Shown here in pieces: positions 162-38,804 of a stretch of DNA of 50,309 nucleotides. The position numbers and the translations under genes were made by a program. Below the pieces are notes generated by a model. It saw only the letters and a list, made by a program, of their open reading frames with translations. It was not told the origin of the DNA and did no database searches. The stretch's first letter is position 1, and every line of letters starts with the position of its first letter. Source of the DNA: Shigella phage Sfin-3; the sequence record MN296515; one strand, 5' to 3'.

Positions 162-310
162 TGGCTGCATGGGTATTGATTATCTTGATGAGCACCGGGC
201 CGGATCACGTATACATGGAAAGTCAGCAAGCATGTAACAAGGCTCGGGAAGTAATTGCAGAAAACAAGCCGTTCGGATACGAAGTAAAAACAATGTGCGT
301 TAAACGATAG
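161..310 (+). CDS. hypothetical small protein (49 aa, hydrophobic N-terminus)
   Basis: ATG 161 overlaps upstream stop; TAG stop 308-310 is first triplet of promoter-module palindrome; below ORF-track size cutoff. Confidence 0.35.
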   Translation: MAAWVLIILMSTGPDHVYMESQQACNKAREVIAENKPFGYEVKTMCVKR

Positions 311-350
311 CAAGAATTGCTAAACCTTCCGCAAGGCCATTTGATATAGT
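308..350 (+). promoter_or_regulatory. composite promoter module (palindrome TAGCA-agaat-TGCTA, 22-nt spacer, -10 TATAGT)
   Basis: Palindrome 308-322; -10 345-350 inside hairpin 333-356; ATG 391. Confidence 0.55.
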
Positions 351-390: not shown

Positions 391-603
391 ATGGCTACAC
401 GACTCACGCAGTGGCAGATTTACGACAAGGCTTCACGCCTTCGTGAATCACTTCGAGGTCTGACACCGAACGATCGCATGGAAATCATCGGTCATGCATT
501 GCACGAACTAACGTCTCAGGACGTAATCTATCATTCGTGCGGCAATAAGTTATGGAACGTAACATTTGAGGTAAAGAAAGATGAGCAAGATTCACAAACT
601 TAA
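391..603 (+). CDS. hypothetical protein (70 aa)
   Basis: ATG 391 preceded by AACCAATCAGAGGA RBS and promoter module 308-350; track ORF 349 begins with GTG inside the promoter hairpin. Confidence 0.55.
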   Translation: MATRLTQWQIYDKASRLRESLRGLTPNDRMEIIGHALHELTSQDVIYHSCGNKLWNVTFEVKKDEQDSQT

Positions 604-868
604 GATCAATCCTGTACATTTCATTGGTGTAATGAACGGAACCAAAACGGCAGAGTTCCGCATTAATGACCGCAACTTCCAGCTTGGCGATATCCTGGAG
701 CTATGCGAGTTCGATCGTGACGAGTTTACCGGGTGGGAAGTTCACGCCAGGGTGTCCGATGTTACAGACGTGACGCCATACATCAATCGCGGGTATGACG
801 ATCAGGAATGCGACTTCACGCAATACGTGATGTTATCAATCAAACCTTACAGGAAGGTTAGACCATGA
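581..868 (+). CDS. ASCH/DUF3850-like protein
   Basis: 95 aa; N-terminal KLKINPVHF...G.KT.EFR.NDR.FQ.GD pattern resembles ASCH/PUA-like DUF3850 domains; RBS gaggtaaag. Confidence 0.55.
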   Translation: MSKIHKLKINPVHFIGVMNGTKTAEFRINDRNFQLGDILELCEFDRDEFTGWEVHARVSDVTDVTPYINRGYDDQECDFTQYVMLSIKPYRKVRP

Positions 869-1503
869 AATTTGAATGCGTATCAAGTGACGGAACGGGA
901 TTTAAGTGGGGAAAAATCTACGAAGGCGCTCGCGTCAATAACGACAGCTTCGTTGTCGTGGATGAGCACGGTAGCAATGTGAACATCATCCGTCGTCACG
1001 AATACCAAGAAATTTTCCTGCCGTATGGCGGTAGTTCAAAATATATCTTCCATCGAATCGTGGATGGTGTTAAATTTAACGACGTAATCGAAGCAATCAA
1101 CCAACTGCATAATAAAGAGGTAAAATTTATGAAATTTGAATGTATCAGTGATAACACCAAAAAATTTACTGTTGGCAAAATCTACGACGTTCCTACTGAG
1201 CACGCAAAGCACACTGTAGCGCTTACTGACGACACGGGCCGTCACCGCATTGCTACCGTAACGCATAATGGCGAAGGTCTGCGATGGAATAGCGGCAGCA
1301 CTAAGTTTGCAACGTTCGGCAAGAAGCGTAAGCGCACTTTCTGCGTTAAAGGCAAGGTTGCAGCAAACAAGATCCACAACGTCAAGCCGTCGGAAGTTGA
1401 CAGCAAGCCAGCACTTAAGTTTGAAGATAAGGCAGATTTGTCTGGTCTGGCTATCGCTCTTGTTCTCCTGGTTGCTTCGATTTCTCTGATGTTCATCATG
1501 TAA
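865..1503 (+). CDS. tail-anchored membrane protein with internal tandem repeat
   Basis: 212 aa; two ~65 aa repeats each starting MKFEC(V/I)S...GKIY; C-terminal hydrophobic helix LAIALVLLVASISLMFIM. Confidence 0.6.
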   Translation: MKFECVSSDGTGFKWGKIYEGARVNNDSFVVVDEHGSNVNIIRRHEYQEIFLPYGGSSKYIFHRIVDGVKFNDVIEAINQLHNKEVKFMKFECISDNTKKFTVGKIYDVPTEHAKHTVALTDDTGRHRIATVTHNGEGLRWNSGSTKFATFGKKRKRTFCVKGKVAANKIHNVKPSEVDSKPALKFEDKADLSGLAIALVLLVASISLMFIM

Positions 1504-1510
1504 TTTTAAC

Positions 1511-1544
1511 GGGGAATCGGCTCTGAACGGTTCCCCTTTATTTT
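1511..1544 (+). terminator. rho-independent terminator candidate
   Basis: Stem GGGGAA/TTCCCC (1511-1516 / 1531-1536) with 14-nt loop, then TTTATTTT. Confidence 0.4.
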
Positions 1545-1556
1545 GGAGAAAACACT

Positions 1557-1667
1557 ATGCCAGACTTTTCTAACTGGAATAACGAGCCGCCATCATTTCA
1601 GGAGTTGCTATTCTGCCTCTTGGTCCTGACATTATCTCTTAAGGGTGTTTTATGGCTACTATCATGA
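1557..1667 (+). CDS. hypothetical small hydrophobic peptide (36 aa)
   Basis: ATG 1557 with GGAGA RBS directly after hairpin 1511-1544; hydrophobic LLFCLLVLTLSL; overlaps next ORF. Confidence 0.3.
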   Translation: MPDFSNWNNEPPSFQELLFCLLVLTLSLKGVLWLLS

Positions 1668-3099: not shown

Positions 3100-3672
3100 A
3101 TGAAAACAGCTATCATTTTAAACGGCGCTCCTGGAGCAGGCAAGGACACTATCGGATGCATCCTGGCTGACACTTACGATCATGTAGCTTTGCGCAGCTT
3201 CAAAGCACCAATGTTTGAGATTGCTCGGGCAATACTGGGTGAGGCTAACTACGAGTATTTCATGTTCTTGTATGAGGATCGTCGTTACAAAGAAGAGCCA
3301 GCGTCAATCCTGAACGGTAAAAGCCCTCGCCAGTTTATGATCTGGATTAGCGAGGAAGTCATCAAGCCACAGTTCGGAAATCGATTCTTCGGTATGCGAG
3401 CGGAAAGCAAGGTCAAAGAGTCATATTCTCTGTCAGTATTTACTGATGGTGGATTCAAAGATGAGGTATTGCAGATGATTGAAGGTGATATCCAGGTCAA
3501 GCTATGCCGAATCCACCGCAAAGGCTGCAACTTTGACAACGACAGTCGTGATTATATTTACCTGGAAGATATGATCGGGGTTAATGGTTATCAGGAGTGT
3601 GATTTTTTCTCTGTCGAAGGTCATCCAGAAATTACCGCTCAGCACATAGCCGCTACGTTCATCAACAAATAG
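3100..3672 (+). CDS. P-loop nucleotide kinase, dNMP kinase (T4 gp1)-like
   Basis: 190 aa; Walker A GAPGAGKDT and ILNGKSPRQ resemble T4 deoxynucleoside monophosphate kinase; TAG stop is first triplet of palindrome 3670-3684. Confidence 0.65.
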   Translation: MKTAIILNGAPGAGKDTIGCILADTYDHVALRSFKAPMFEIARAILGEANYEYFMFLYEDRRYKEEPASILNGKSPRQFMIWISEEVIKPQFGNRFFGMRAESKVKESYSLSVFTDGGFKDEVLQMIEGDIQVKLCRIHRKGCNFDNDSRDYIYLEDMIGVNGYQECDFFSVEGHPEITAQHIAATFINK

Positions 3673-3712
3673 CACGAATTGCTAAAACGTCGGTGGGGTG
3701 ATTTGATATAGT
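3670..3712 (+). promoter_or_regulatory. composite promoter module (TAGCA-cgaat-TGCTA, 22 nt, -10 TATAGT)
   Basis: Palindrome 3670-3684; -10 3707-3712; ATG 3745. Confidence 0.55.
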
Positions 3713-4295: not shown

Positions 4296-4525
4296 TGTTT
4301 GGTTTAAGTGAAGCGGAATGGAACGTGGTAAAGCGCGCGGCGAAGGAATTGAATAAATTTGTTAGCGGAATGAAGAAGGAAGATCGCAAAAACGAAAAGA
4401 TTATGATTGATGTGATCTCAACTCATCACAAAAAGGTTGAGCTACTCATCGACCGCTACAAGTTTGTATGGACCGCCGGATATATTGCAGGGCGCGTAGG
4501 TAACAAAGAGGGTGATTACGAATAA
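4295..4525 (+). CDS. hypothetical protein (76 aa)
   Basis: Track ORF; translationally coupled to neighbours. Confidence 0.5.
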   Translation: MFGLSEAEWNVVKRAAKELNKFVSGMKKEDRKNEKIMIDVISTHHKKVELLIDRYKFVWTAGYIAGRVGNKEGDYE

Positions 4526-4728
4526 TGGCTAACTTACCGAAGAAAGGCGATCAGGTTCGATGTGTTACATCACGCAATGGTGATGCTTTCTCAGCGGGAT
4601 GCTTGTATGACGTTGAAAAAGTAAGTAAAGCAAAGAGACTCGTATTTGTATACGGAGACGATGGAAATATTCATGAGATTGACTACCCGCAGGATATTAC
4701 TAAGGGCCAATTTGAAATTAATGATTGA
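4525..4728 (+). CDS. hypothetical protein (67 aa)
   Basis: Track ORF; start overlaps upstream stop. Confidence 0.5.
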   Translation: MANLPKKGDQVRCVTSRNGDAFSAGCLYDVEKVSKAKRLVFVYGDDGNIHEIDYPQDITKGQFEIND

Positions 4729-31493: not shown

Positions 31494-31508
31494 TAGCACG
31501 AATTGCTA
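31494..31508. promoter_or_regulatory. palindrome copy in operator position at tail-fibre promoter
   Basis: TAGCA-cgaat-TGCTA lies between the predicted TSS of the - strand sigma70-like promoter (31516-31544) and the tail-fibre RBS. Confidence 0.45.
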
Positions 31509-31515
31509 AACACAG

Positions 31516-38627: not shown

Positions 38628-38804
38628 ATGAAACGAGTTAAGTGCATCCGAAATGATTCCAAAACGCTTCCATTCCGCGTAAATCAGATCTATAGTGTTG
38701 GTTATGATTTCGGAGGTGGATTGTTTGAGATTTACGATGGTAGAGGTTCAACAATCCAAGCTCCTCTGAACGGTCATTACCTGGAATTTATTGAGCTAGA
38801 TTAA
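38628..38804 (+). CDS. hypothetical small protein (58 aa)
   Basis: ATG 38628 with AAAGAGG RBS after module 38556-38598; followed by terminator 38827-38856; below ORF-track cutoff. Confidence 0.45.
   Translation: MKRVKCIRNDSKTLPFRVNQIYSVGYDFGGGLFEIYDGRGSTIQAPLNGHYLEFIELD

What the first reader, a model, noticed from the sequence alone, without database searches (positions are those of the whole stretch)
865..1503. Tail-anchored membrane protein built from a tandem duplication
The 212-aa protein has two ~65-aa repeats, both beginning MKFEC(V/I)S and containing GKIY, followed by a basic linker and a single C-terminal TMD. An internal duplication displayed on the membrane suggests a bivalent binding module facing cytoplasm or periplasm, a typical build for host-takeover or exclusion factors. 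It is followed by a terminator-like hairpin (1511-1544).
Basis: seen in the sequence. Interest (0 to 1): 0.35.

Follow-up and report, generated by a model that had tools for sequence, protein, structure and literature searches.

The report
Tail-anchored phage protein, duplicated SH3-like domain

Summary
The window is a whole T1-like phage (Tunavirus). ORF 865-1503 (212 aa, phrog_10580) has two copies of a ~66-aa all-beta domain (aa 1-66 and 89-154). They share 25% identity, and profile-profile comparison gives E 2.9e-10. A short helix links the copies. A basic, disordered tether follows (net +7), then one hydrophobic helix that ends the protein. A real terminator-type hairpin follows the gene.

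The domain is a sub-threshold relative of Pfam DUF7244/DUF6501, reported to be in the SH3 clan. Elsewhere it occurs as soluble single copies or tandem arrays. Only the Drexlerviridae orthologues found here carry the tail anchor.

Repeat 2 plus the anchor is the conserved core (dN/dS 0.04). It stands alone in other genera, and in T1 and Chapo, which lost repeat 1 by independent deletions. Repeat 1 evolves faster (0.16).

An invariant Shine-Dalgarno sequence and ATG at codon 89 sit in a roughly ninefold trough of synonymous change. This suggests a nested 124-aa isoform.

My best reading is a cytoplasm-facing, membrane-tethered binding module. Its partner and role are unknown. This is a modest new variant of a known kind, and only moderately interesting.

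The parts
308..324 (+). Copy of the T1-like intergenic direct repeat (TAGCAnnAATTGCTAAA), followed by a hairpin. It marks the start of the three-gene unit that ends with this gene.
   Evidence: The window has 17 copies against 0.21 expected by chance. A 21-nt repeat with the consensus aaATAGCACnnnTTGnTAAAA, of unsettled function, is described for phage TLS in PMC11447400. The same element directly precedes the single-domain orthologues in IME347, BrunoManser, SRT8 and T1.
581..868 (+). Upstream gene for a DUF3850/ASCH-like protein. Its TGA stop overlaps the ATG of the focal gene (ATGA).
   Evidence: Pfam DUF3850 E 6.8e-16. phrog_986 'RNA-binding protein'. The overlap is read directly from the sequence.
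865..1503 (+). CDS of the 212-aa tail-anchored protein (23.8 kDa, pI 9.3). It is the orthologue of phi2457T gp14.
   Evidence: phrog_10580 E 1e-133. The ORF is intact in 56 of 69 phage records. Overall dN/dS is 0.16.
865..1062 (+). Repeat 1 (aa 1-66), an all-beta domain. It evolves faster than repeat 2 and is dispensable in T1 and Chapo.
   Evidence: hhalign against repeat 2 E 2.9e-10. AF2 strands E2-66, with 10-residue block mean pLDDT 80-87 over aa 1-40 and 64-70 over aa 41-66. dN/dS 0.16. Deletions are seen.
1063..1128 (+). Inter-repeat segment (aa 67-88, helix 71-81). It doubles as the leader and ribosome-binding region for the internal start.
   Evidence: AF2 helix H71-81. dS is 0.05 here against ~0.47 in the rest of the gene. 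Only 5 of 22 third positions vary against 128 of 190 elsewhere, Fisher p 8.5e-5.
1117..1131 (+). Internal Shine-Dalgarno GAGG (1117-1120), an 8-nt spacer, and in-frame ATG (1129-1131, codon 89). This is the predicted start of a 124-aa, 13.7-kDa isoform.
   Evidence: Invariant in 13 two-repeat genomes, in the most divergent lineage and in DELF2. The T1 record annotates this RBS and start for ORF68. The local RNA is 74% A+T with dG -2.6, against a gene mean of -8.0. It is the only internal in-frame ATG with a Shine-Dalgarno sequence.
1129..1326 (+). Repeat 2 (aa 89-154), the conserved core domain. It is a six-stranded small beta barrel distantly related to DUF7244/DUF6501.
   Evidence: dN/dS 0.043. 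The domain-only AF2 model has pLDDT 91 and pTM 0.76. Its profile matches a bona fide DUF7244 protein, T1 ST14, at 67% probability, E 5e-5.
1327..1437 (+). Basic, disordered tether (aa 155-191, pI 9.8).
   Evidence: AF2 pLDDT is below 50 over aa 151-191. Net charge is +7 over aa 153-191. Length and sequence vary among orthologues.
1438..1500 (+). C-terminal transmembrane helix (aa 192-212), the tail anchor. The stop codon is at 1501-1503.
   Evidence: Kyte-Doolittle maximum 2.68. AF2 helix 186-211. Every orthologue has a hydrophobic helix 0-5 residues from its C-terminus despite sequence turnover.
1511..1544 (+). Intrinsic-terminator-type hairpin (GGGGAATCG...CGGTTCCCC) followed by TTTATTTT.
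   Evidence: The T1 record annotates it as a terminator. The stem is conserved across genera, but the U-tract is present only in Tunavirus.
1557..1667 (+). Conserved downstream mini-ORF of 36 aa encoding a single-pass membrane peptide (motifs HWNEPP and LKGVLW). It is a possible partner.
   Evidence: It is the same as T1 ORF67, annotated 'single TM'. It is conserved in IME347 and BrunoManser. In metagenomic T1-like contig L024 its start overlaps the end of the tail-anchored gene.

Best explanation
The gene encodes a C-tail-anchored inner-membrane protein of a T1-like phage.

Shown by sequence and comparison:
- Two diverged copies of a ~66-aa six-stranded beta domain, joined by a short helix.
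- A ~35-residue disordered basic tether.
- One transmembrane helix that ends the polypeptide.
- The domain is a sub-threshold relative of the phage DUF7244/DUF6501 domains, which are reported to belong to the SH3 clan.

Inferred:
- There is no signal peptide, and the basic residues lie on the N-terminal side of the helix. So the helix should insert after translation, as in E. coli tail-anchored proteins that use YidC. That leaves both domains in the cytoplasm on a flexible leash at the membrane surface (N-in, C-out).
- Repeat 2 plus tether plus anchor is the ancestral and functional core. Repeat 1 is a later Tunavirus-specific duplication that is under purifying selection but dispensable.
- The gene most likely yields two nested products. 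One is the 212-aa form from ATG 865, translationally coupled to the upstream ASCH-like gene. The other is a 124-aa form from the conserved internal Shine-Dalgarno sequence and ATG at 1129.

Proposed mechanism, with low certainty: a membrane-tethered adaptor. A conserved basic face (GRxRx5HxGx3R) of the SH3-like barrel would bind a cytoplasmic or membrane-proximal ligand, either an acidic protein segment, nucleic acid or anionic lipid. The protein possibly acts together with the conserved 36-aa membrane peptide encoded just downstream. It is a non-essential accessory function.

My confidence by step is about 0.85 for the architecture, 0.7 for the cytoplasmic orientation, 0.55 for the internal isoform and 0.3 for the adaptor role.
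For: Repeat:
- establish the two copies as homologous.

Fold:
- The full-length AF2 model shows two beta domains, helix 71-81, a disordered stretch 151-191 and helix 186-211.
- The domain-only model has pLDDT 91.

Tail anchor:
- There is a single hydrophobic segment at the extreme C-terminus.
- This holds in all orthologues from Badaguanvirus, Sertoctavirus and a metagenomic T1-like lineage, although the helix sequences differ.
- Basic residues directly precede the helix (KKPWYRRKEN, ESKRERITK) in those orthologues.
- The T1 record predicts N-in, C-out.
- YidC-dependent insertion of a C-tail-anchored E. coli protein, TssL, is described in PMC3426401 (listed, title and abstract only).

Domain family:
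- An exhaustive profile search found 51 relatives. Most are soluble single copies or tandem arrays with the pattern MKVKCI..LTxGKxYeV..iiDDxG.
- Some of those pass the Pfam cut-offs for DUF7244 or DUF6501.
- DUF7244 is placed in the SH3 clan according to PMC13164509.

Core versus accessory repeat:
- dN/dS is 0.043 for repeat 2 and 0.16 for repeat 1.
- T1 and Chapo lost repeat 1 by different deletions and kept the rest intact.

Internal start:
- It sits in a synonymous-site trough, Fisher p 8.5e-5.
- The Shine-Dalgarno sequence and ATG are invariant, including in the 58%-identical lineage.
- It is the annotated RBS and start of T1 ORF68.
- The initiation region is A+T-rich and unstructured.
Against: - No experiment or annotated homologue bears on function. 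Pfam, PHROGs, NCBIfam and PADLOC gave nothing functional.
- The sequence search of solved structures gave nothing below E 0.14.
- Foldseek found no significant solved structure. The best E-values were 0.07 and 0.3, with TM at most 0.46. The SH3-like fold is therefore suggestive only.
- In the window protein the 19 residues just before the helix are about neutral. The strongly basic stretch lies 20-40 residues upstream, so the positive-inside argument rests partly on the orthologues.
- The synonymous trough spans about 45 codons, wider than a ribosome-binding site needs. It could reflect an RNA structure, an internal promoter or a recent recombinational sweep instead.
- A natural chimera (P0057) joins a lipoprotein-like signal peptide to the same tether and helix. 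If that protein is functional, the tether would lie in the periplasm.
Confidence: 0.5

Rival explanations
1. The functional product is essentially the 124-aa protein (repeat 2 plus anchor) made from the internal start. Repeat 1 is a dispensable, slowly decaying 5' extension produced when a duplicated upstream copy read through into the ancestral gene's leader. On this view the '212-aa bivalent protein' matters little.
For: - T1 and Chapo lack repeat 1 yet keep the internal Shine-Dalgarno sequence, the ATG and the rest of the gene.
- All other genera have only one domain, preceded by the intergenic repeat unit.
- Repeat 1 has a 3.6-fold higher dN/dS.
- In DELF2 the first start codon is GTG.
- The segment just upstream of the internal ATG shows nucleotide-level constraint. 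It also resembles the leader found upstream of the T1 gene.
Against: - Repeat 1 is still under clear purifying selection (dN/dS 0.16).
- The 212-aa frame is open in 56 of 69 records.
- AF2 models the first half of repeat 1 with block mean pLDDT 80-87, above that of repeat 2 in the same model, falling to 64-70 over aa 41-66.
- Its ATG overlaps the stop of the upstream gene, a classic coupling arrangement.
Confidence: 0.2
2. The hydrophobic tail, not the soluble domains, is the effector. Alone or with the downstream 36-aa membrane peptide it perturbs the inner membrane or a membrane complex. Examples would be blocking DNA entry of superinfecting phage, or tuning lysis timing. The domains would act as regulators.
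For: - The pairing with a small single-pass membrane ORF is conserved across genera, and the two genes overlap in one lineage.
- The helices are rich in small residues (Gly, Ala, Ser) in all orthologues.
- T1-like phages are known to encode membrane-acting exclusion functions such as Cor.
Against: - The helix and tether are the least conserved parts (dN/dS 0.27-0.30), while repeat 2 is nearly invariant. That points to the domain as the specific element.
- At most 5 residues would reach the periplasm.
- There is no similarity to known exclusion or holin families.
Confidence: 0.12
3. The domains face the periplasm (N-out), where SH3-like modules could bind peptidoglycan or a receptor. PMC13164509 proposes peptidoglycan binding for the stand-alone DUF7244 protein next to the lysis genes.
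For: - PMC13164509 compares the related stand-alone DUF7244 protein with cell-wall-binding SH3 domains.
- The chimera P0057 places the same tether behind a lipoprotein-like signal peptide.
Against: - There is no N-terminal signal peptide and no second hydrophobic segment.
- A 190-residue N-terminal portion with a +7 tether cannot be translocated by a C-terminal helix under known rules.
- Basic residues flank the N-terminal side of the helix in the orthologues.
- The T1 annotation predicts N-in.
Confidence: 0.05

Closest known systems
Phage T1 ORF68 (CPTT1_010, YP_003876), with the single-domain orthologues IME347 gp15 and SRT8 gp48 / BrunoManser bas12_0070
   Same: They are orthologous and lie in the same gene order. 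T1 ORF68 is 85% identical to aa 89-212, and all end in a C-terminal membrane helix. In T1 the same terminator follows, and in T1, IME347 and BrunoManser the same downstream mini-ORF follows. T1 ORF68 is annotated 'single TM, N-in C-out'.
   Different: They carry one domain, not two. T1 reached that state secondarily, by a ~730-bp deletion that also removed the ASCH-like gene. All are 'hypothetical protein'.
Pfam DUF7244 (PF23896; reported in the SH3 clan), for example T1 ST14 and its window orthologue at 38628-38804, the 'stand-alone SH3' next to the lysis genes (PMC13164509)
   Same: It shares the sequence pattern K-C-(I/V)...F/L-T-x-G-K-x-Y...D-D-x-G and a small beta-barrel prediction. Profile-profile comparison gives 67% probability, E 5e-5. 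It occurs in the same phages.
   Different: The focal protein scores 13.6 bits against the 27-bit cut-off. Its domain is longer (66 against 57 aa) and has an extra conserved GRxRx5HxGx3R segment. It is duplicated and membrane-anchored. It lies in the left-arm accessory region, not beside the lysis genes.
Pfam DUF6501 (PF20111) and soluble tandem arrays of the same domain (2-6 copies) in phage and metagenome proteins
   Same: The exhaustive profile search recovers them. Several pass the DUF6501 and/or DUF7244 cut-offs. Tandem duplication of this domain is therefore a recurrent theme.
   Different: None of those relatives has a membrane anchor. The tail-anchored proteins themselves stay below the DUF6501 cut-off.
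Bacterial C-tail-anchored inner-membrane proteins (for example TssL, which YidC inserts; PMC3426401)
   Same: The build is the same: a cytoplasmic N-terminal domain, a single helix at the extreme C-terminus and no signal peptide.
   Different: There is no sequence or domain relationship. Neither insertion route nor orientation has been tested here.
Genes with two in-frame starts, such as the dual-start holins discussed for TLS and T1 (PMC11447400)
   Same: A conserved in-frame internal ATG with its own Shine-Dalgarno sequence is predicted to give a long and a short product that share a membrane helix.
   Different: Here the long form adds a whole 88-residue domain and linker rather than one to a few residues. 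No evidence links the gene to lysis.

Membership tests
Tail-anchored (C-tail-anchored) membrane protein | A single transmembrane helix at or very near the C-terminus | tested here: met
   There is only one hydrophobic segment, aa ~186-212, and no residue follows it. The same holds in 14 orthologues, 0-5 residues from the end.
Tail-anchored (C-tail-anchored) membrane protein | No N-terminal signal peptide and no other membrane segment | tested here: met
   In the Kyte-Doolittle scan, no 19-residue window above 1.0 starts before residue 184.
Tail-anchored (C-tail-anchored) membrane protein | N-terminal domain in the cytoplasm, with post-translational insertion | not testable with these tools
   This is inferred only, from the basic residues before the helix and from the T1 annotation.
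Pfam DUF7244 (SH3 clan) | Score at or above the gathering cut-off of 27 bits | tested here: not met
   The window protein scores 13.6 bits. The best full-length tail-anchored orthologue scanned scores 21.4 bits. The best member of domain alignment A3 reaches E 7.3e-5. T1 ST14 scores 99.8 bits as a positive control.
Pfam DUF7244 (SH3 clan) | Profile-level homology to a bona fide member | tested here: inconclusive
   hhalign of alignment A4 against T1 ST14 gives 67% probability, E 5e-5, 40 columns. Intermediate relatives such as P0075 pass the cut-off at 36.9 bits.
Pfam DUF6501 | Score at or above the gathering cut-off of 23.8 bits | tested here: not met
   Tail-anchored orthologues score about 13 bits. 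The remote relatives P0060, P0061, P0068 and P0102 pass.
SH3-like small beta-barrel fold | Significant structural match to solved SH3-like domains | tested here: inconclusive
   The model is of high confidence (pLDDT 91). The best Foldseek E-value is 0.3. SH3 domains and the SH3-like domain of Pif1 appear at TM 0.40-0.46. Tudor, KOW and SH3 domains appear among the full-length model's hits.
PHROG phrog_10580 (unknown function) | Full-length profile match | tested here: met
   E 1e-133 over 1-212 of 212 positions. Single-domain orthologues match positions 89-209.
Rho-independent terminator | A G+C-rich stem-loop directly followed by a U-tract | tested here: met
   9-pair stem, 6 G-C pairs, TTTATTTT, dG -16.9. 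It is conserved in Tunavirus, but in other genera the U-tract is missing.
Gene with a nested in-frame second start | A conserved internal Shine-Dalgarno sequence and start codon, with evidence of constraint | tested here: met
   The T1 record annotates the same site as the RBS and start of ORF68.
Gene with a nested in-frame second start | Both products detected | not testable with these tools
   This needs immunoblots or initiation-site ribosome profiling.

The most novel reading that the evidence does not exclude
The gene is a two-output module. An invariant internal translation-initiation region is embedded in the linker codons. It makes a one-domain anchor protein alongside the two-domain form. 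The ratio of long to short form, or mixed oligomers of the two, would set the activity of a membrane-tethered SH3-like adaptor. That adaptor would work with the adjacent 36-aa membrane peptide on a host inner-membrane target. This would be a previously unrecognised host-interaction device of T1-like phages.
Probability: 0.2. Interest if true: 0.5.

Novelty: new variant of a known kind. Interest (0 to 1): 0.3.

Why it matters
About half of the genes in T1-like phages have no assigned function. This one belongs to a very widespread but unstudied small phage domain (DUF7244/DUF6501-like). It is the only form of that domain found here that is fixed to the membrane, which gives an experimental handle for localisation and partner capture.

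The T1 and Chapo deletions are ready-made natural mutants. The strong synonymous constraint around codon 89 is a concrete, cheaply testable prediction of a nested isoform. None of this overturns current understanding. The value is in annotation, and as a tractable entry point into the function of the domain family.

Tried and rejected
- A word-index homologue search with the 66-aa repeat alone returned no candidates. That search was wasted.
- Sequence search of solved structures found only chance-level hits, E at least 0.14.
- Two Foldseek searches against the PDB found nothing significant.
- NCBIfam and PADLOC had no hits for the gene or its neighbours.
- A Pfam scan of multi-domain remote relatives, looking for informative fusions, found none.
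- The 2174-aa hit P0058 is a false lead. Its repeats are PPC pre-peptidase domains that mimic the Y...DD.G pattern.
- Literature searches found no functional data on this gene. They covered T1 genome papers, tail-anchored phage proteins, Tunavirus early genes and the DUF names. The useful finds were the SH3-clan statement for DUF7244 and the description of the 21-nt repeat.
- I considered an internal sigma-70 promoter in the constrained segment. The consensus scan found none there, and only a weak extended -10 can be read by eye.
- I considered a SAR-like or holin-like helix. I rejected it because the helix is strongly hydrophobic (2.68) and C-terminal.
- I considered whether the ORF is two mis-merged genes. 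I rejected that because no stop codon separates the halves in the 13 two-repeat genomes examined.
Full report
**What the window is.** The 50.3-kb window is a complete T1-like phage genome (Drexlerviridae, Tunavirus). Bases 500-2000 are 89-93% identical to Shigella phage phi2457T, IME18, Shfl1 and about 50 others. The focal ORF is phi2457T gp14, annotated 'hypothetical protein'. It is a full-length member of phrog_10580, function unknown (E 1e-133).

**Checking the observation.**
- ORF 865-1503 encodes 212 aa.
- BLASTP of aa 1-88 against aa 89-212 aligns only the first 20 residues (11 of 20 identical, E 5e-6).
- With family information the repeat is clear. hhalign of the two halves' profiles gives 96.8% probability, E 2.9e-10 over 39 columns.
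- Each repeat's HMM finds the other, at 1.5e-6 and 4.4e-4.
- A joint alignment of both repeats with single-domain relatives extends over ~66 residues. M1, K2, C5, F13, Y19, D34 and G37 are invariant and H46 is nearly so. The two copies are 25% identical.
- The only hydrophobic segment is the last ~21-26 residues. The Kyte-Doolittle 19-residue maximum is 2.68, nothing follows the segment, and the preceding 39 residues carry net charge +7.
- The hairpin at 1511-1536 plus TTTATTTT is a good intrinsic-terminator match. The T1 record annotates it as one.

**Structure.**
- AlphaFold2 on the full protein with a shallow alignment has mean pLDDT 60.5. It gives two small all-beta domains (strands 2-66 and 88-150), a helix at 71-81, a disordered stretch at 151-191 and a helix at 186-211.
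- I assembled 54 diverse domain sequences from the exhaustive search. With that alignment the repeat 2 domain alone models at pLDDT 91 and pTM 0.76 as a six-stranded barrel.
- Foldseek finds no significant solved structure, with best E-values of 0.07 and 0.3. The hit lists are dominated by SH3 domains, the SH3-like domain of Pif1, and Tudor, KOW and Rpp29-type barrels, at TM 0.40-0.46.
- Against predicted viral structures, the hits are uncharacterised phage proteins. They include 63-75-aa single-domain proteins at TM 0.7-0.8.

**What the domain is.**
- The window protein gives only a sub-threshold Pfam hit to DUF7244, at 13.6 bits against a 27-bit cut-off. Seven of 14 family domains hit DUF7244 weakly and three hit DUF6501.
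- An exhaustive profile search of 1.84 billion representatives found 51 proteins at E of 1e-3 or better.
- Apart from one false lead (PPC repeats in P0058), these share the pattern MKVKCI..(L/F)TxGKxYeV...y.iiDDxG....F. They are single copies or tandem arrays of 2-6 copies. Several pass the Pfam cut-offs for DUF7244 and/or DUF6501.
- T1 ST14 is the 'stand-alone SH3' that lies beside the lysis genes. It is a bona fide DUF7244 protein at 99.8 bits. It matches the domain profile at 67% probability, E 5e-5.
- PMC13164509 reports that InterPro places DUF7244 in the SH3 clan.
- The repeats are therefore divergent members of a widespread small phage beta-barrel superfamily of unknown function. Tandem duplication of this domain is common.
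- The window has at least one more member, the ST14 orthologue at 38628-38804. A probable third is ORF 4525-4728.

**The tail anchor is what is special.**
- None of the remote relatives has a membrane segment at the C-terminus.
- All Drexlerviridae orthologues do, 0-5 residues from the end, although the helix sequences differ.
- These orthologues have one domain. They are IME347 gp15 at 126 aa (Badaguanvirus), SRT8 and BrunoManser at 104 aa (Sertoctavirus), a metagenomic T1-like lineage at 145 aa, and T1 ORF68 at 124 aa. They lie in the same gene order.
- Basic residues precede the helix (for example KKPWYRRKEN), and there is no signal peptide.
- N-in, C-out is therefore the expected orientation, as the T1 record also predicts.
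- This remains an inference. In the window protein itself the immediate flank is about neutral, and the strongly basic stretch lies further upstream.

**History of the duplication.**
- In the other genera the single-domain gene is preceded by the intergenic direct-repeat unit: TAGCACnAATTGCTAAAA, a hairpin, then a leader.
- In Tunavirus, repeat 1 occupies that position. Its ATG overlaps the stop codon of the ASCH-like gene (ATGA).
- T1 lacks the ASCH-like gene, the gene before it and repeat 1. The junction lies within ~25 nt upstream of the internal ATG, between two similar short sequences (GAAGCAnnnCAACCAA at about 362-376 and 1090-1104). Because the other genera keep the ASCH-like gene, T1 is the derived deletion.
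- Phage Chapo lost codons 1-58 by a different deletion.
- Both phages keep repeat 2, the tether and the helix intact.

**Selection.** These values come from 13 two-repeat genomes (Nei-Gojobori method).

| Region | dN/dS |
|---|---|
| Repeat 1 | 0.16 |
| Repeat 2 | 0.043 |
| Tether | 0.30 |
| Helix | 0.27 |

All parts are coding and constrained, and repeat 2 is by far the most constrained. Codons 67-88 stand out. Their dS is 0.05 against ~0.47 elsewhere.

**A probable nested isoform.**
- Third-position diversity shows a trough from about codon 56 to 100, with its minimum at codons 76-90. Only 5 of 22 third positions vary there against 128 of 190 elsewhere (Fisher p 8.5e-5).
- The trough is centred on GAGG (1117-1120), an 8-nt spacer and ATG 1129.
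- This Shine-Dalgarno sequence and ATG are invariant in all 13 genomes. They are also conserved in DELF2, whose first start is GTG, and in the 58%-identical P0037 lineage.
- The T1 record annotates this site as the RBS and start of ORF68.
- The surrounding 50 nt are 74% A+T and nearly unstructured, with dG -2.6 against a gene mean of -8.0. It is the only internal in-frame ATG with a Shine-Dalgarno sequence.
- I therefore think a 124-aa isoform is made alongside the 212-aa protein. This is untested. The trough is wider than a ribosome-binding site needs, so an RNA element or a promoter is not excluded.

**Context.**
- The gene closes a three-gene unit that runs from the direct repeat at 308 through ORF 391-603, the ASCH-like gene and this gene to the terminator. 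This fits the 'transcripton' picture summarised in PMC11447400.
- A 36-aa single-pass membrane ORF (1557-1667) lies immediately downstream. It is conserved across genera, and in one lineage its start overlaps the end of the tail-anchored gene. That makes it a candidate partner.
- Further downstream lie two conserved unknown ORFs, polynucleotide kinase/phosphatase and a P-loop kinase-like gene.

**Function.**
- No library or paper gives a function.
- The best-supported mechanism is structural: a cytoplasm-facing, membrane-tethered SH3-like binding module on a flexible basic leash.
- The residues conserved specifically in the anchored family (GRxRx5HxGx3R in repeat 2) suggest a basic binding face.
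- The rival explanations are that the short isoform is the real product, that the helix and mini-ORF are the effector, and that the domains face the periplasm. They are weighed in their own sections.

**Verdict.** The gene family is already catalogued as hypothetical, and the T1 record already notes the membrane segment. Three things are new: the domain assignment, the duplication history with its two natural deletions, and the evidence for a nested start. This is a new variant of a known kind, of moderate interest.

Noticed in passing
window 308-324, 1855-1871, 2375-2391, 3670-3686, 31494-31510 and 12 more sites: The direct repeat TAGCAnnAATTGCTAAA occurs 17 times against 0.21 expected by chance. 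At the copies examined in the sequence read (308, 1855, 2375) it lies between genes and in the direction of transcription. At the two copies read in full (308, 1855) a hairpin follows whose loop or stem holds a -10-like hexamer about 22 nt after TTGCTA. PMC11447400 describes the same 21-nt repeat in phage TLS and leaves its function open (stoperator, enhancer or UP element).
   Followed up: partly
window 1557-1667 (+): A 36-aa single-pass membrane mini-ORF (MPDFSNWNNEPP...LKGVLWLLS) starts 12 nt after the terminator T-run and has its own GGAG. Its product is identical to that of T1 ORF67. It is conserved in Badaguanvirus and Sertoctavirus, and many records leave it unannotated. It overlaps the next ORF (1652-1870) by 16 nt.
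   Followed up: partly
window 1511-1536 compared with L004, L006 and L007 downstream of the orthologues: The hairpin stem GGGGAAT...(G/A)TTCCCC after the gene is conserved across genera, but only Tunavirus has the U-tract. A near-identical stem (AGGGGAAT...ATTCCCCT) sits in the repeat unit at window ~1876-1899. The hairpin may therefore have a role beyond termination.
   Followed up: partly
window 38628-38804 (+) and 4525-4728 (+): There are two further small proteins of the same beta-barrel superfamily. One is the orthologue of T1 ST14, a bona fide DUF7244 protein that PMC13164509 calls the 'stand-alone SH3' of the lysis region. The other is a 67-aa ORF (phrog_4927) that matches the repeat profile weakly (HMM E 0.008; hhalign E 8e-4).
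   Followed up: partly
window ~362-376 and ~1090-1104; T1 locus L003 1520-1540: Two similar short sequences (GAAGCAnnnCAACCAA) lie ~730 bp apart. They flank exactly the segment missing from phage T1: two genes plus repeat 1. This suggests that the T1 reference strain is a microhomology-mediated deletion derivative.
   Followed up: partly
L029 1895-2312 (metagenomic T1-like contig, protein P0057): This is a natural chimera. A foreign cassette replaces both repeats. It encodes a small membrane protein and a lipoprotein-like signal peptide (MMRILICMMAAVAITILVVSGC...). It is fused in frame at TKFATFGKK to the tether and tail helix.
   Followed up: partly
window 581-868 (+): A DUF3850/ASCH-like ('RNA-binding') gene is translationally coupled to the focal gene. 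It is present in the other genera but deleted in T1. It lies in a block with polynucleotide kinase/phosphatase (2458-2991) and a P-loop kinase-like ORF (3100-3672).
   Followed up: no
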